NCBI GenBank assembly: GCA_951406725.2
Contig: OX597819.1
Span: 27,342,001 to 27,406,000, forward strand
Source of the DNA: Octopus vulgaris
Lineage: Eukaryota
Length of the DNA stretch: 64,000 bases
Direction: 5' to 3'
Each line of letters starts with the position of its first letter. Position 1 is the first letter of the stretch. Under the pieces are notes generated by a model, which was given only the letters and a program-made list of their open reading frames with translations, was not told the DNA's origin and made no database searches. Position numbers and translations under genes: made by a program. Below are positions 2,450 to 63,605 of this stretch, one piece after another.

Positions 2450-2935
2450 GCTTGGGTGTGGCTGTGTGGTAAGTAGCTTGCTTACCAGCCAAATGGTTCC
2501 GGGTTCAGTCCCACTGCGTGGCACCTTGGGCAAGTGTCTTCTACTATAGCCTCGAGCCAACCAAAGCCTTGTGAGTGGATTTGGTAGACGGAAACTAGAA
2601 AGAAGCCCTTCGCATATATGTAGATATATGTGTGTGTGCGTGTGCGTGTGTGCGTGTGTGTGTGCGTGTGCGTGTGCGTGTGTGTGTGTGTGTGTGTCTG
2701 TGTTGTGTGTTTGTGTTTGTGTGTCTGTGTTGTGTGTTTGACAACCGATGCTGGTGTGTTTACTTCCCCGTAACTTAGTGCTTCGGCAAAAGAGACCGAT
2801 AGAATAAGTACTAGGCTTACAAAGAATAAGTCCTGAGGTCGATTTGCTTTGACTAAAGACGGTGCTCCAGCATGGTCGCAGTCAAATGACTGAAACATAT
2901 AAAAGTAAAAAAGTAAGTAAAAGTAAGTAAAAGTA
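2450..2935 (+). mobile_element. tRNA-derived SINE family A, full length
   Basis: A box TGGCTGTGTGG, B box GGTTCAGTCC, CORE-like ACCTTGGGCAAGT, central TA/TG microsatellite, tail GGTGCTCCAGCATGG..CAGTCAAATGACTGAAAC plus AAAAGT repeats. More than 12 copies in the window. Confidence 0.9.
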
Positions 2936-2979
2936 GATATGAATGCGACTGTACATGTTTGTATGCGTGACTGTGCAAG

Positions 2980-3022
<43 letters not shown>

Positions 3023-3326
3023 GTGTGTGTGTACTTGTGTATGTATGCTTGTGTGCGTGCGTGCGTGTGTGTGTGTGACTCTGTATGTGTGTTTGTGGGG
3101 GGGGGCGGGGATGAGACTCTGGTGGCTGTGTGAATGTTTATATGTGTCAATGTGAATGTATTTGTGTTTGAGTGTGAGAATTTGTCTATGGTTAATATAC
3201 GCATGGATTTATATGTATGAATGTGTATGTATATATATATATGTATGTGTGTGTACGTGTATTCGTAACTATATGTGTGTAAGCTTTGTTTTCATACACC
3301 CTCCCGATTAAATTTTTTTTTAAATA

Positions 3327-3711
3327 GGCGCAGGAGTGGCTGTGTGGTAAGTAGCTTGCTAACCAACCACATGGTTCCGGGTTCAGTCCCACTGCGTGGC
3401 ATCTTGGGCAAGTGTCTTCTGCTATAGCCCCGGGCCGACCAATGCCTAGTGAGTGGATTTGGTAGACGGAAACTGAAAGAAGCCTGTCGTATATATGTGT
3501 ATATATGTATATATGTGAGTGTGTTTGTGTGTGTGTGTGTGTTTGTCCCCCTAGCATTGCTTGACAACCGATGCTGGTGAGTTTACGACCCCGTAAAATA
3601 GCGGTTCGGCAAAAGAGACCGATAGAATAAGTACTGGGCTTACAAAGAATAAGTCCCGGGGTCGATTTGCTCGACTAAAGGCGGTGCTCCAGCATGGCCG
3701 CAGTCAGATGA
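3327..3711 (+). mobile_element. SINE family A
   Basis: Starts GGCGCAGGAGTGGCTGTGTGGTAAG. Same body as other copies; 3' tip clipped. Confidence 0.9.
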
Positions 3712-3819
3712 GTCTAAAGAGTCTATTCTACATATTTGCATTCTTTTTTGTTTTGAATTACATTTATTTTATATAATTTGTCAATATTTTGGTGTTATAG
3801 GTGTTGTATGGGTACTATA

Positions 3820-3886
<67 letters not shown>

Positions 3887-3936
3887 CTGCGTGTGTGTGA
3901 GAGAGAGGGGGAAAAGGAGGAAGGGTGAGAGAGCGT

Positions 3937-3970
<34 letters not shown>

Positions 3971-4077
3971 ATAAACACACATAAACATACATAAAAACTA
4001 TCATATATATGTATTTCTGCGTATGAGTGTACGTGTGTATGCGTACGTGTGCGTGTGTGAGTGTGTGTAATAAAAAC

Positions 4078-4123
<46 letters not shown>

Positions 4124-4250
4124 ACACGTATCTATATAGCTATCTATCTACCTATCTATCCATCCACCCATCCATCCGTTCGTCTGTCTATCTATCTATC
4201 TATCTATCGATCTATCTATATACATACGTATGTATATATACATACATATA

Positions 4251-4281
<31 letters not shown>

Positions 4282-4323
4282 ATGTATGTATACATATATA
4301 TATATATATATAATTTTATATAC

Positions 4324-4416
<93 letters not shown>

Positions 4417-4655
4417 TTTTATTCTTCCCAATCAAAGCGTATCTGAGTCCGTTCAAGCAAACATCACCAAGTTCTTTCTCTCTCACAACCCTAACCCTCT
4501 CTCTTTCTCTCAATCTCCCTCTCTTTCTCTCCCCTCTCTCTCTCTCTCTCTCCCTCTCTGTCTGACAGTCACACACTCACCCACACATGCACATATCCAT
4601 CCATGCACACACATATACCCATACATACGTAGACGACGCGCACTCACACACACAG

Positions 4656-4689
<34 letters not shown>

Positions 4690-5182
4690 ACACACATACA
4701 CATGCCCACACATCGTTCAACGACCTCTTGCACATAAAAAGTGTTAATATTTCAATAATATCATAATACTTATTCTAAGTATGAAAACTTGAAAGCGATA
4801 TTGAATGATATTAAACGATACGCAACATTAAGGATATCGTTTAATAAATAGTCCTTTGTGTGTATGGATATCTACATGTGCATGTGTAAGTGCATCTGTC
4901 TGCGTGTATGTGGGTAAATGTGTGATATACTAAAATATATATATATATACATGTCTTCGTTAGTAGTTGTCTGTACCTTTGCGTATTGGTCTCTTTGTGG
5001 TCTGGGCTTATGTGTGTGTGTGCGTATATAAGTGTGTGTCTGTCTGTCTGTCTGTACAGTATATACAAATAGTTATATACAGGGATACAGTCATGAACAA
5101 TGTATAGAGACAATGGTATATTTAAAAAGTGAAGCAAAATAAAAAATGGATAGAGATAGATAGATAGAAAGATAGACAGATG

Positions 5183-11598: not shown

Positions 11599-12198
11599 GG
11601 TGGCGAGCTGGCTGTATCGGTAGCGCGCCGGGCGAAATGCTAAGCGGTATTTTATCTGCCGCTACGTTCTGAGTTCAAATTCCGCCGAGGTCGACTTTGC
11701 CTTTCATCGTTTCGGGGTCGATTAAATAAGTACCAATTACGCACAGTGGTCGATATAATCGACTTAATCCGTTTGTCTGTCCTTGTTTGTCCTCTCTGTG
11801 TTTCGCCCCTGGTGGGTAGTTAAAAAATAGGTATTTCGTCTGCCGTTATGTTCTGAGTTCAATTTCCGCCGAGGTCGACTTTACCTTTCATCCTTTCGGA
11901 GTCGATTAAATAAGTACCAATTACGCACAGTGTTCGATATAATCGACTTAATCCGTTTGTCTGTCCTTGTTTGTCCTCTCTGTGTTTAGTCCCTTGTGGG
12001 TAGTAAAGAAATAGGTATTTCGTCTGCCGTTATGTTCTGAGTTCAATTTCCGCCGAGGTCGAGTTTACCTTTCATCCTTTTGGTGTCGATAAATTAAGTA
12101 CCAGTTACGCACTGGGGTGGATGTGATCGACTTAATCCTTTTATCTGTCCTTGTTTGTCCCCCTCTATGTTTAGCTCCTTGTGGGCAATAAAGAAATA
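11599..12198 (+). mobile_element. tRNA-derived SINE family B, head-to-tail trimer
   Basis: B box GAGTTCAAATT and body GGTCGACTTTGCCTTTCATCCTTTCGGGGTCGAT..AAGTACCA three times. 17-bp direct repeat AGATAGGGAGTGAGAGA at 11579-11595 and 12199-12215. Confidence 0.9.
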
Positions 12199-21766: not shown

Positions 21767-21810
21767 CTGGCTGTTACTCCGAGTTTCGCTACACCGCTTC
21801 TCAACCCGGC

Positions 21811-21812
<2 letters not shown>
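21767..21812 (-). ncRNA. Degenerate hammerhead-like motif next to (TA)n
   Basis: Minus: TTGAGAA-GC-GGTGTA-GC-GAAA-CTCGGAG-TA. Stem I does not pair well. Confidence 0.3.
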
Positions 21813-23908: not shown

Positions 23909-24558
23909 TTTTTATTCATTTATTTGTTTCAGTTATTTGACTGCGGCCATGCTGGAGCACCCCCTTTAGTCGAACAAAATCGACTCCAGGATTTATTCTT
24001 TACGAAGTCTAGTACTTATTCTATCGGTCTCTTTTGCCGAACCGCTAAGTTACGGGGACGTAATCAAACCAGCATCGGTGTGTTTACGCGATGTTGGGGG
24101 TACACACACACACACACACATTCTTTTTCTTTCTTTTATTCTTTTACTCGTTTCAGTCATTTGACTGCGGCCATGCTGGAGCACCGCCTTTAGTCGAGCA
24201 ACTCGACCCCGGGACTTATTCTTTGTAAGCCTAGTACTTATTCGATCGGTCTCTTTTGCCGAACCGCTAAGTGACGGGGACATAAACACACCAGCATCGG
24301 TTGTCAAGCAATGCTAGGGGGACAAACACTGACACACAAACACACACGCACATATATATATATATATACATATATACGACGGGCTTCTTTCAGTTTCCGT
24401 CTACCAAATCCACTCACCAGGCTTTGGTCGGCCCGAGGCTATAGTAGAAGACACTTGCCCAAGGTGCCACACAGTGGGACTGTACCCGGAACCATGTGGT
24501 TGGTAAGCAAGCTACTTACCACACAGCCACTCCTGTGCCTATAGCCACTCCTGCGCCT
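23909..24558 (-). mobile_element. SINE A full copy plus adjacent 3' half
   Basis: 3' half at 23909-24120, full copy at 24125-24540, short duplicated head to 24558. Confidence 0.88.
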
Positions 24559-25845: not shown

Positions 25846-26118
25846 TTATACGGACAAGAAACTAATATTTCGACCTCAAAATCGCCGTGAAAGCAGCAGA
25901 AAAATTAGGTATTCTTACCCTAGCACGGTGGGAAAAAGTTGTCAACAAACAGCTACGGGACTCAAATCCGCATCTCTCAGAGACAGACTGAGTACTATAC
26001 CATTAAGCTAAACTGCCCACTGTCAGTCTGTTGACAACTTTTTTCCGTCTTGCATGAGTAATAATACCCATTTTTTCTGCTGTTTTCACGACGAAATATT
26101 AGTATCTTCTCTGTATAA
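25846..26118. mobile_element. Inverted-repeat (MITE-like) element with tRNA-like centre
   Basis: Imperfect arms of about 100 bp at 25846-25950 and 26026-26118 (e.g. GAAAAAGTTGTCAACA / TGTTGACAACTTTTTTCC). Spacer folds as a cloverleaf on the minus strand. Confidence 0.7.
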
Positions 26119-27404: not shown

Positions 27405-27540
27405 GGCGGCGAGCTGGGCGAAATGCTTAGCGGTATTTCGTCTGCCGTTACGTTATGAGTTCAAATTCCGCCGAGGTCGACTTTGCCTTTCATCCTTTCG
27501 GGATCGAAAAATTAAGTACCAGTTACGCACACGGGTCGGT
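27405..27540 (+). mobile_element. SINE B, 3'-truncated
   Basis: Family B head and body ending where the hammerhead-bearing element begins. Confidence 0.82.
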
Positions 27541-27737
27541 ACGCTGCATTGATAAAGGGCAAATACCCTGAAACATGTCTGCAGCTGTTTGACTGGCAGG
27601 ATGAAGCGGCTGACCTCCCCTGTTCGAAGGTTTATAATGGACGCAGGTTGTGTGTCAAATAGCTAGCTTGAGGCGGTGGCCTCTTGGAGCTAATCAGCGA
27701 CAGCTTTAGTCTTATACTTATAAGACTGCCATATAAG

Positions 27738-27798
<61 letters not shown>

Positions 27799-27884
27799 TC
27801 GCCATACTTATATGGCAGTCTTATAAGTATAAGACTAAAGCTGTCGCTGATTAGCTCCAAGAGGCCACCGCCTCAAGCTAGCTA
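27541..27884 (+). mobile_element. Penelope-like LTR with inverted partial copy
   Basis: Hammerhead at the start. Perfect 80-bp inverted repeat 27660-27739 / 27805-27884 around a (TA)n spacer. Confidence 0.65.
27543..27585 (+). ncRNA. Minimal type-I hammerhead ribozyme (U3:A8 variant)
   Basis: GCTGCA-TTGATAA-AGGG-CAAATA-CCCT-GAAA-CATG-TC-TGCAGC: 6-bp stem I, 4-bp stem II, palindromic stem III ACATGT, GUC cleavage triplet. Confidence 0.75.
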
Positions 27885-28466
27885 TAATATATATATATAT
27901 ATATATACCTTTAAGATGTGTGTGTAGGTATGAATGTATGCACACACAAAAGCACATACCTTCAATTATAGACACAGGTATAGTTGCGTTGTTATGAATT
28001 TTGATTCGCCAGTCTGCCGGGTGGGGGGCCCCACTAGGTACCTTTTGCTGAATTATCATCTACTAAAGCCTCGGGTTTACCAACGCGTTGTGAGTGGAAT
28101 TTGGGGAGTGGAAAATGTGCGGGAGCCCATGGATTTGCGTGTGTGCTTGCGTGCGTGTGTGCGTTTGTGTGTGTGTGTGTGTGTTGTGTGTGTGTGTGTG
28201 TGTATGTGTGTGTGTATGTGTGTGTGTGTGTATAGACATACAGCTACACTGACAGACAGAAGACAGACAGGCAGGCAGACAGGCAGACAGGTAGGCAGGC
28301 AGGTATGTAGGTAGGCAGGCAGGCAGGTAGGTAGGTGGGTAGGTAGGTAGGTAGGTAGGTAGGTAGGTAGGTAGGTAGGTAAACAAGGTGAATGGTGTAA
28401 GCAACTCGTTTTTATTGCATAATTATGTCACCGACGATGTTTATGTAGAAAACTCCTCTCCAAAGG

Positions 28467-63235: not shown

Positions 63236-63450
63236 GTGTATGTACACATATATATATATATGTTTATATATATATATGTATATATATAAACATATATACC
63301 AGCAAGAAACAATAATGAATTTCTTTACTACACTCAACTTGAAATTTATAACTATTATACCTACTACCGACAAAACACCACCACATGGATTCTATTGAGA
63401 CCAGTAAGAGAAAATTATGAACTTCTCTATTACACTTTACTTTTTAAAAT

Positions 63451-63495
63451 ATTTTTGATAAGGTTCGTTTTTTCAAGAACCGAAACAAGTAAAAT
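63451..63495 (+). ncRNA. Minimal type-I hammerhead ribozyme (U3:A8 variant)
   Basis: ATTT-TTGATAA-GGTTC-GTTTTTTCAA-GAACC-GAAA-CAAG-TA-AAAT, within a Penelope-LTR-like block (63300-63555) between TA runs. Confidence 0.65.
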
Positions 63496-63605
63496 TCATA
63501 AGAAAATTAAAATTGATATAATATAGTGGCGTTTTCAAACTTCTTTTTTTACAAATATATATATTTATATATATATATATATACATGAATAGACAGACAG
63601 ACTGG

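What the first reader, a model, noticed from the sequence alone, without database searches (positions are those of the whole stretch)
63451..63495. Second, independent U3:A8 hammerhead in an unrelated (TA)n-embedded element
Seen: the same UUGAUAA core but different stems (GGUUC/GAACC, AUUU/AAAU, GUA triplet) and unrelated flanks. Distal TTATGAA/TTCATAA could extend stem I. A third, weaker UUGAGAA case lies at 21767-21812. Inference: recurrence of the covariation in different families argues for selection rather than AT-biased decay.
Basis: partly seen in the sequence, partly recalled or inferred. Interest (0 to 1): 0.7.

Follow-up and report, generated by a model that had tools for sequence, protein, structure and literature searches.

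The report
Penelope retroelement hammerhead with U–A core
This stretch is a short, damaged copy of the tail of a Penelope-type jumping gene, carrying a predicted self-cutting hammerhead RNA with an already published U–A core pair; related families in the same genome carry A–U and G–C at that pair, which likely means the pair is kept by selection, but cutting is untested.

Summary
The motif is real. It lies in a 266-bp, 5'-truncated copy (63296-63561) of the 3' end of a Neptune-like Penelope-like element (RT, CxxxxCxxC linker, GIY-YIG). U3:A8 is the family state, not decay: 96 of the first 100 of 180 exact copies are U3:A8, 4 are U3:G8, none has C3; decay would give about 0.0002 per copy. This copy has lost the palindromic stem III (ACAAGU, family ACAUGU), so it is likely inactive. 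U3:A8, including UUGAUAA families, is already published for Penelope hammerheads (PMC4209133 with supplement; PMC3088659).

The 27549 motif belongs to an unrelated ~365-bp retrozyme-like repeat with a C3:G8 sister family, so two origins are likely. Within the Penelope clade, U3:A8 looks inherited once rather than recurrent. The better evidence for selection is that sister families carry A3:U8 (99 of 100 listed copies) and G3:C8 (71 of 100 listed G3 hits), swaps that AT-biased decay cannot make. I found these purine-3 cores in no paper searched; this scan noted them earlier on other DNA (e1-8663303, e1-8670522). The distal helix and the 21767 case are unsupported. Cleavage is untested.

The parts
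63296..63561 (+). 5'-truncated copy of the 3' UTR/pLTR of a Neptune-like Penelope-like element, inserted in (TA)n, without the optional ~30-nt tail
   Evidence: 95.5% identical over 267 columns to L002, which continues upstream into the RT-EN frame; 1542 candidates, 40 scored
63451..63454 (+). Stem I, 5' strand (AUUU)
   Evidence: 4 A-U pairs, weak; 3 bp or 1 bp plus mismatches in sister subfamilies
63455..63461 (+). Hammerhead core UUGAUAA (U3 at 63455, A8 at 63460)
   Evidence: 34 of 34 aligned rows U3:A8; 96 of 100 listed exact copies; no other letter at 10% or more at either place in contigs of 4 runs labelled with three organisms
63462..63481 (+). Stem II (GGUUC/GAACC, G10.1-C11.1) with 10-nt loop
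   Evidence: in every MFE and centroid of this region; a related family has GGUUUU/AAAACC
63482..63491 (+). GAAA, minimal stem III and GUA triplet; family palindrome ACAUGU is ACAAGU here (private change at 63488); predicted cut between 63491 and 63492
   Evidence: 24 of 31 rows ACAUGU, window copy the only ACAAGU; T at 63488 in about 96-100% of contig depth in 4 runs; self-duplex -4.6 vs +0.9 kcal/mol
63492..63495 (+). Stem I, 3' strand (AAAU)
27540..27739 (+). Comparison element: truncated copy of an unrelated ~365-bp retrozyme-like repeat with a U3:A8 type I hammerhead (core at 27549), followed by (TA)n and an inverted partial copy (27805-27885)
   Evidence: 2412 candidates, 40 scored; 365-bp tandems and no PLE frame in 20 loci; aligns over about 250 bp with a C3:G8 sister family
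21767..21812 (-). Hammerhead-like remnant (UUGAGAA core, odd palindrome ACUCGGAGU, broken stem I); family not found, uninformative

Best explanation
The motif is the minimal type I hammerhead of a Neptune-like Penelope-like retrotransposon family whose copies share the U3:A8 core; in intact elements it is predicted to self-cleave after GUA as a dimer or with protein help, the 3:8 pair is likely kept by selection on the transposing RNA, and this truncated copy is likely inactive. Shown: the element identity, its place about 0.6-1 kb after the RT/GIY-YIG frame, the family-wide U3:A8 state, the private break of the stem III palindrome in this copy, and paired alternatives (A3:U8, G3:C8) in related families. 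Inferred: two ribozymes in tandem pLTRs pair their ACAUGU palindromes to build stem III; the 3:8 Watson-Crick pair positions nucleotide 8, so selection on the mobile RNA keeps the pairing while the letters can change; U3:A8 arose once before the sampled Penelope clade radiated, and separately in the retrozyme-like repeat. Untested: cleavage, and what cleavage does for the element.
For: Element: RT motif YLDD, CGKPNCGIC linker and GIY-YIG upstream on the same strand; PF01541 E=2.8e-7; 781-aa frame with RVT_1 (E=1e-6, just under cut-off) and GIY-YIG in a sister subfamily; variable 5' ends, inverted partial copies, sharp 3' ends; 18 of 36 3' ends with a ~30-nt tail, as described for PLEs (PMC8557442, PMC11167929). 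Not decay: C>T 1.2% and G>A 1.7% among 31 close copies give 0.0002 per copy against 96 of 100; no C3:G8 copy of this clade among 23 non-U3 hits genome-wide. Pairing by family: 65 of 68 hits in multi-member clusters are Watson-Crick in the ACAUGU class (pattern limited to Y3/R8); 74 of 76 in the six hammerhead-shaped clusters of the ACCGGU class, with 3 and 8 unconstrained. A3:U8 family: 197 hits vs 0 control, 99 of 100 listed. G3 search: 117 vs 1 control, 71 of 100 listed have C8 (hand count), and most mismatched ones examined are mutants of U:A or A:U families. Stem I differs by compensatory changes between families. Biochemistry: G8C drops cleavage 10^5-fold and C3G partly rescues (PMC8495972 passage); the same rescue in a PLE hammerhead that cleaves only with protein (PMC11167929).
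Against: No cleavage or expression data here. The monomer does not fold into the hammerhead by energy. Stem I of this lineage is weak, and subfamily 2c, which has intact 781-aa frames, has a U-U mismatch at the second pair and G10.1-U11.1; the G3:C8 family has only 1-2 bp of stem II. Both fit relaxed constraint. In the Anolis element, ribozyme mutants did not affect insertion in vitro and no RNA-seq ends mapped at the cut site. Copies starting exactly at the predicted cut are only weakly enriched: 4 events at 63492 against 3 at 63498 and single events at six other nearby positions (hand calls). The number of independent switches is small (two in the Penelope clade, one in the retrozyme-like lineage), the root is weakly supported (72-80), 4 ingroup tips and the outgroup had no hammerhead seen, and I found no ORF-linked C3:G8 family to date the first switch. 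The other core letters were fixed by my search patterns, so their conservation is not evidence.
Confidence: 0.8

Rival explanations
1. Inherited relic: the ribozyme is no longer catalytically needed in this lineage; U3:A8 is simply carried along, and the paired swaps in sister clades are old events or reflect selection on a fold or protein-binding site rather than on cutting.
For: Weak, eroding stem I in young subfamilies; 1-2 bp stem II in A3:U8 and G3:C8 families; low or no activity of min-HHRs in vitro (PMC4209133); cleavage dispensable in vitro (PMC11167929); Naiads spread without canonical HHRs (PMC8557442).
Against: Each switch needs two changes at two separated core positions and ends in a Watson-Crick pair; no hammerhead-shaped family with an unpaired 3:8 was found among the clusters; palindromic stem III and G10.1-C11.1 persist in most families at 45-66% protein identity.
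Confidence: 0.15
2. AT-biased or deamination decay of C3:G8 copies produced U3:A8 copy by copy.
For: Can apply to old singletons: among 32 singletons, paired and mismatched cores both occur, and the 21767 remnant resembles a C3:G8 class.
Against: Expected 0.0002 per copy vs 96 of 100 observed; no C3:G8 member of the clade; cannot produce A3:U8 or G3:C8 families.
Confidence: 0.02
3. Chance resemblance of an AT-rich repeat to a hammerhead.
For: Folding z-scores are not significant; no Rfam hammerhead among the listed matches.
Against: 2 hits vs 0.05 in shuffles; 4,859 vs 538 and 16,292 vs 1,822 genome-wide against reversed-pattern controls; found in the 3' UTR in 18 of 30 GIY-YIG loci picked from the protein side (one further weak candidate not counted).
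Confidence: 0.03

Closest known systems
Minimal type I hammerheads of metazoan Penelope-like elements, U3-A8 variant (Cervera and De la Peña 2014, PMC4209133; read parts 1-2 of 4 of the main text and the whole supplementary PDF text)
   Same: 3' pLTR position, short stem I, palindromic minimal stem III, G10.1-C11.1, mostly truncated single copies; U3-A8 core with about 1,300 hits in Schistosoma mansoni; UUGAYAA/UUGARAA families Sm3-Sm4 and Xenopus UUGAUAA/UUGANAA families (74 and 229 sequences).
   Different: [quoted passage not shown] No A3:U8 or G3:C8 core and no cephalopod among the 56 representatives in the supplement text (figures were seen only as extracted text).
Natural core variants of hammerheads (Perreault et al. 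2011, PMC3088659; read section 8 and passages)
   Same: C3-G8 covaries to U3-A8 in several natural ribozymes; such swaps were already shown active in vitro (their ref. 32, Przybilski and Hammann 2007, which I could not obtain).
   Different: That section does not mention natural A3:U8 or G3:C8; it does not treat retroelement family history.
Poseidon element of Anolis (Frangieh et al. 2024, PMC11167929; read parts 1-2 of 4)
   Same: PLE hammerhead, tail signature, AT-rich targets; C3/G8 swap partly rescues cleavage.
   Different: C3:G8 core overlapping the ORF start; Poseidon clade; here the motif lies 0.6-1 kb after the ORF and the protein has a Neptune-type Cys linker.
Non-LTR retrozymes (PMC7229834, passages; bioRxiv 10.64898/2026.07.22.740005, part 1 of 5)
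   Same: Matches the 27549 element: non-coding ~365-bp tandem unit with a type I hammerhead and PLE-like insertions.
   Different: U3:A8 core; mostly monomers and dimers in the loci seen; circular RNA not tested. The 63455 element is not a retrozyme but the tail of an autonomous family.

Membership tests
Type I minimal hammerhead (PLE type) | Core NUGANNA and GAAA...UH with a Watson-Crick 3:8 pair | tested here: met
   UUGAUAA, GAAA, GUA
Type I minimal hammerhead (PLE type) | Stem II opening with G10.1-C11.1 | tested here: met
   5 bp GGUUC/GAACC
Type I minimal hammerhead (PLE type) | Stem I of 3-7 bp closing the motif | tested here: met
   4 A-U pairs in this subfamily; weaker in sister subfamilies; not in the MFE
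Type I minimal hammerhead (PLE type) | Palindromic stem III allowing a dimer (family level) | tested here: met
   ACAUGU in 24 of 31 rows, duplex -4.6 kcal/mol
Type I minimal hammerhead (PLE type) | Palindromic stem III in this copy | tested here: not met
   ACAAGU, duplex +0.9 kcal/mol; private change. The copy is filed as a damaged copy of a member family, not as an intact ribozyme.
Type I minimal hammerhead (PLE type) | Site-specific self-cleavage | not testable with these tools
   Only weak genomic hint from 5' ends
Penelope-like elements (EN+) | RT followed by C-terminal GIY-YIG endonuclease | tested here: met
   (in other copies; the window copy has no ORF)
Penelope-like elements (EN+) | Partial tandem or inverted 5'-truncated copies and optional 30-40 bp tail | tested here: met
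   tail in 18 of 36 ends
Penelope-like elements (EN+) | Full pLTR-ORF-pLTR unit with a hammerhead at both ends | tested here: inconclusive
   Only the 3' hammerhead seen in near-full copies L031 and L357; direct tandem 3' ends in L019
Neptune clade of PLEs | CX2-5CxxC linker between RT and EN and microsatellite targeting | tested here: met
   CGKPNCGIC; (TA)n flanks; feature taken from PMC8557442
Neptune clade of PLEs | RT phylogeny with reference Neptune elements (Nematis shares the linker) | not tested
   No reference PLE proteins were in hand; hence 'Neptune-like'
Non-LTR retrozymes (27549 element) | Non-coding 150-450 bp unit with type I HHR, occurring in tandem | tested here: met
   365-bp spacing in L054, L060, L177; no PLE frame in 20 loci
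Non-LTR retrozymes (27549 element) | Expressed as linear and circular RNA | not testable with these tools
   Only contigs were served

The most novel reading that the evidence does not exclude
One Penelope-like clade has abandoned the canonical C3:G8 core altogether: U3:A8 is its ancestral state, from which A3:U8 and G3:C8 families arose and amplified, so one animal genome holds all four Watson-Crick pairs at 3:8 as natural, catalytically active family masters. That is a ready-made evolutionary rescue experiment showing PLE hammerheads are selected for catalysis, and it means CUGANGA-based searches miss many thousands of motifs.
Probability: 0.5. Interest if true: 0.6.

Novelty: new member of a known kind. 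Interest (0 to 1): 0.38.

Why it matters
The locus itself is ordinary: one damaged copy of a published hammerhead variant. Its family context matters more. Whether Penelope hammerheads need to cut is an open question (PMC4209133, PMC8557442, PMC11167929). The 3:8 pair sits in the catalytic core and positions nucleotide 8, so paired swaps fixed in separate successful families argue for selection on the active site. They also supply natural U3:A8, A3:U8 and G3:C8 sequences for a direct test. Practically, descriptors that demand CUGANGA miss most minimal hammerheads of the ACAUGU and ACCGGU classes here (26 of 100 and 2 of 91 sampled hits were C3:G8), which bears on claims that some elements lack hammerheads.

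Tried and rejected
Rfam scan: no hammerhead among the 150 listed of 539 matches; the list is dominated by microsatellite matches to miRNA models. Folding energy: no signal. Distal TTATGAA/TTCATAA helix: not conserved across subfamilies; an alternative distal helix (UUUUUA with UAAGAA) appears in the MFE of L002 but was not tested for covariation. U3:G8 copies as an evolutionary intermediate: the 5 examined fall in different subfamilies, so they look like separate later changes. 5' ends at the cut site: weak. For the 63455 family, 4 events at 63492 vs 3 at 63498; Poisson P=0.011 with an assumed mean of 0.85, confounded by (AT)n microhomology. For the 27549 family, 2 of about 9 junctions among 64 hits (hand calls). 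Third site: no family found. Expression: no RNA holder listed; contigs cannot show ends. A C3:U8 repeat matched the pattern (4 distinct hits) but has no stem I and no G10.1-C11.1, so I did not count it as a hammerhead. First tree was discarded because L301's frame belonged to a different element and L240's row mixed two elements; searches left out L301, L222, L343, L308, L332, L298, L356 and L214, and one search also five redundant rows. Literature: searches for A3-U8/A3U8/U3A8/AUGANUA/UUGANAA (0 papers), positions 3 and 8, G3-C8/C3G/G8C (1 review) and octopus with hammerhead (listing only) found no natural A3:U8 or G3:C8 report. Przybilski and Hammann 2007 was not held; I did not read the Terminon paper, the Perreault supplements or any figure as an image, and these could hold such variants.

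Full report
Observation. A descriptor with free positions 3 and 8 finds two such motifs in the window, at 27549 and 63455, both U3:A8, against a mean of 0.05 in 40 block shuffles. Energy gives no support (z from +0.59 to -1.26; only stem II is stable), and Rfam listed no hammerhead.

What the element is. The genome is 2.8 Gb in 227 contigs; that it is octopus-like is my recall of its SINEs and the wording of earlier scan notes, not a test. The motif lies in a repeat with 1542 candidate places (40 scored). The window copy spans 63296-63561 and is 95.5% identical to L002. Longer copies run upstream into a frame with the RT motif YLDD, a CGKPNCGIC linker and a GIY-YIG domain; a sister subfamily has a 781-aa frame with both domains. 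Copies are 5'-truncated at varied points, often carry an inverted partial copy, sit in (TA)n, and 18 of 36 3' ends carry a ~30-nt tail. These are the described marks of Penelope-like elements, and the Cys linker with microsatellite targeting points to the Neptune type (PMC8557442, passages; PMC11167929). Clade membership was not tested with reference proteins.

U3:A8 is the family state. All 34 aligned rows from 30 loci have U3:A8 (these are the best matches to the window copy). An exact pattern allowing C/T at 3 and A/G at 8 gives 180 hits and 0 controls; of the 100 listed, 96 are U3:A8, 4 U3:G8, none C3. A search for any non-U base at 3 returned 23 hits genome-wide: 5 C3:A8 copies of this clade, no C3:G8 copy of it, 2 C3:G8 hits with another layout, and 16 with A3 or G3. 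Among 31 close copies C>T is 1.2% and G>A 1.7%, so decay would give U3:A8 in about 0.0002 of copies (three partial rows dropped). Contigs of four public runs, labelled with three organisms, show no other letter at 63455 or 63460 at 10% or more. The decay null is rejected for this family, but the count reflects descent from a master, not selection on each copy.

This copy is damaged. The family has the palindrome ACAUGU (24 of 31 rows); the window copy alone has ACAAGU. The self-duplex goes from -4.6 to +0.9 kcal/mol. With no ORF and no 5' part, it is likely an inert fragment.

Independence. The 27549 motif sits in a different repeat (2412 candidates), a non-coding unit with 365-bp tandems and no similarity to this element's tail (best E=0.8). 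It aligns over about 250 bp with a C3:G8 sister family (3 copies) that has compensatory stems, so its core switched within that lineage. For the Penelope families the picture differs. Trees of RT-EN fragments (rows left out are listed under Tried and rejected) place U3:A8 in this family, the L097/L229 family and clusters c0, c1 and c2, and probably the L215 lineage by likeness to L348, spanning the ingroup. U3:A8 therefore looks inherited once. The root is weak (72-80), four ingroup tips and the outgroup showed no hammerhead, and no ORF-linked C3:G8 family was found.

Evidence for selection on the pair. In the ACAUGU class (4,859 hits vs 538 control; pattern limited to Y3/R8) the first 100 hits were U:A 60, C:G 26, U:G 9, C:A 5; in multi-member clusters 65 of 68 were paired. 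In the ACCGGU class, with 3 and 8 free (16,292 vs 1,822), 91 distinct hits were recovered from the first 100: U:A 63, A:U 16, C:U 4, C:G 2 and one each of six other states; 74 of 76 in six hammerhead-shaped clusters were paired, and the C:U cluster lacks stems. An A3:U8 family, first met from the protein side, has 197 exact hits and 0 controls, 99 of 100 listed A3:U8, a 6-bp stem I with a compensatory subfamily, and lies about 290 nt after the endonuclease. A G3 search gave 117 hits vs 1 control; by hand count 71 of the 100 listed have C8, 17 U, 8 A, 4 G. Of the 30 fetched, 21 form one PLE-linked family (18 G:C) and most others are mutants of U:A or A:U families. A3:U8 families and G3:C8 copies each form a clade (99-100), grouped with a U3:A8 family (90). 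Going from U:A to A:U takes two transversions among A and T, which AT bias cannot drive. Against this: few independent switches, weak stems in successful families, and the other core letters were fixed by my patterns.

Mechanism. From established hammerhead biochemistry (PMC8495972, passages) the 3:8 pair holds nucleotide 8 in place; G8C costs 10^5-fold and C3G partly rescues. PLE minimal hammerheads cleave weakly as dimers (PMC4209133) or only with element protein, and cleavage was dispensable for insertion in vitro (PMC11167929). I infer that intact elements cut after GUA when two pLTR copies pair their palindromes, probably to process tandem transcripts, and that selection acts on the transposing RNA. 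Copies that begin exactly at the predicted cut exist (4 events) but are not clearly above the microhomology background.

Side claims. The distal helix is not conserved. The 21767 case has a broken stem I, no family found, and its nearest class is mainly C3:G8 (13 of 15 loci), so it supports neither reading.

What is known. Natural U3:A8 was reported in 2011 (PMC3088659, section 8) and in PLE hammerheads in 2014, with about 1,300 hits in Schistosoma and UUGAUAA families in Schistosoma and Xenopus (PMC4209133). Natural A3:U8 or G3:C8 families were not found, with the gaps stated above. This scan had already noted the four-pair set and the G3:C8 family on other DNA of this genome; I saw those notes, and they are not independent evidence.

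Verdict. A real, family-inherited U3:A8 hammerhead of a known kind, in a damaged copy. The interest lies in the clade-wide cycling of the 3:8 pair, which is testable. Interest 0.38.

Noticed in passing
L243-L267, L233, L181 (e.g. L243:1496-1533): PLE-linked hammerhead families with A3:U8 core; 197 exact hits for one family, two more clusters.
   Followed up: yes
L358-L387 (e.g. L374, L379, L382): PLE-linked hammerhead family with G3:C8 core, 7-11 bp stem I in the best copies, but only 1-2 bp stem II.
   Followed up: yes
L306:2890-3050: Inverted pair of one family in which one arm has U3:A8 and the other A3:U8: a chance double change or a second switch.
   Followed up: no
L166-L169, L093: U3:G8 in 4 of 100 copies exceeds the A>G background of 0.5% (P=0.0014, background from close copies and so too low). 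The copies are not one subfamily; A-to-I editing before reverse transcription is a guess.
   Followed up: partly
L357:1406-2482 and 2745-5087: A 359-aa frame without a Pfam match above cut-off precedes the 781-aa RT-EN frame, a two-frame layout rather than the single ORF of canonical PLEs.
   Followed up: no
L388-L402: Very large C3:G8 hammerhead family with an odd 9-nt palindrome in stem III and many tight inverted pairs (6,500 pattern hits vs 64 control); no PLE frame within 1.5 kb in 15 loci.
   Followed up: partly
L041/L042, L037, L048, L030: Insertions whose 5' end is exactly the predicted cut site; in L041/L042 both arms of an inverted pair start there, joined by a short palindrome.
   Followed up: partly
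window 25947-26017 (-): tRNA-like match, RF00005 39.9 bits (gathering 29); possibly a SINE head.
   Followed up: no
window 11646-12198 and 23910-24342: Tandem copies (periods 184 and 222) of SINE-like repeats (SINE label recalled).
   Followed up: no
L032:2084-2821, L033:1884-2621, L034:1-438: Mariner-like transposase frames next to PLE copies (label recalled from motifs).
   Followed up: no
L271, L311, L313, L341: Repeat matching the core pattern with C3:U8 but without stem I; not counted as a hammerhead, nature unknown.
   Followed up: partly
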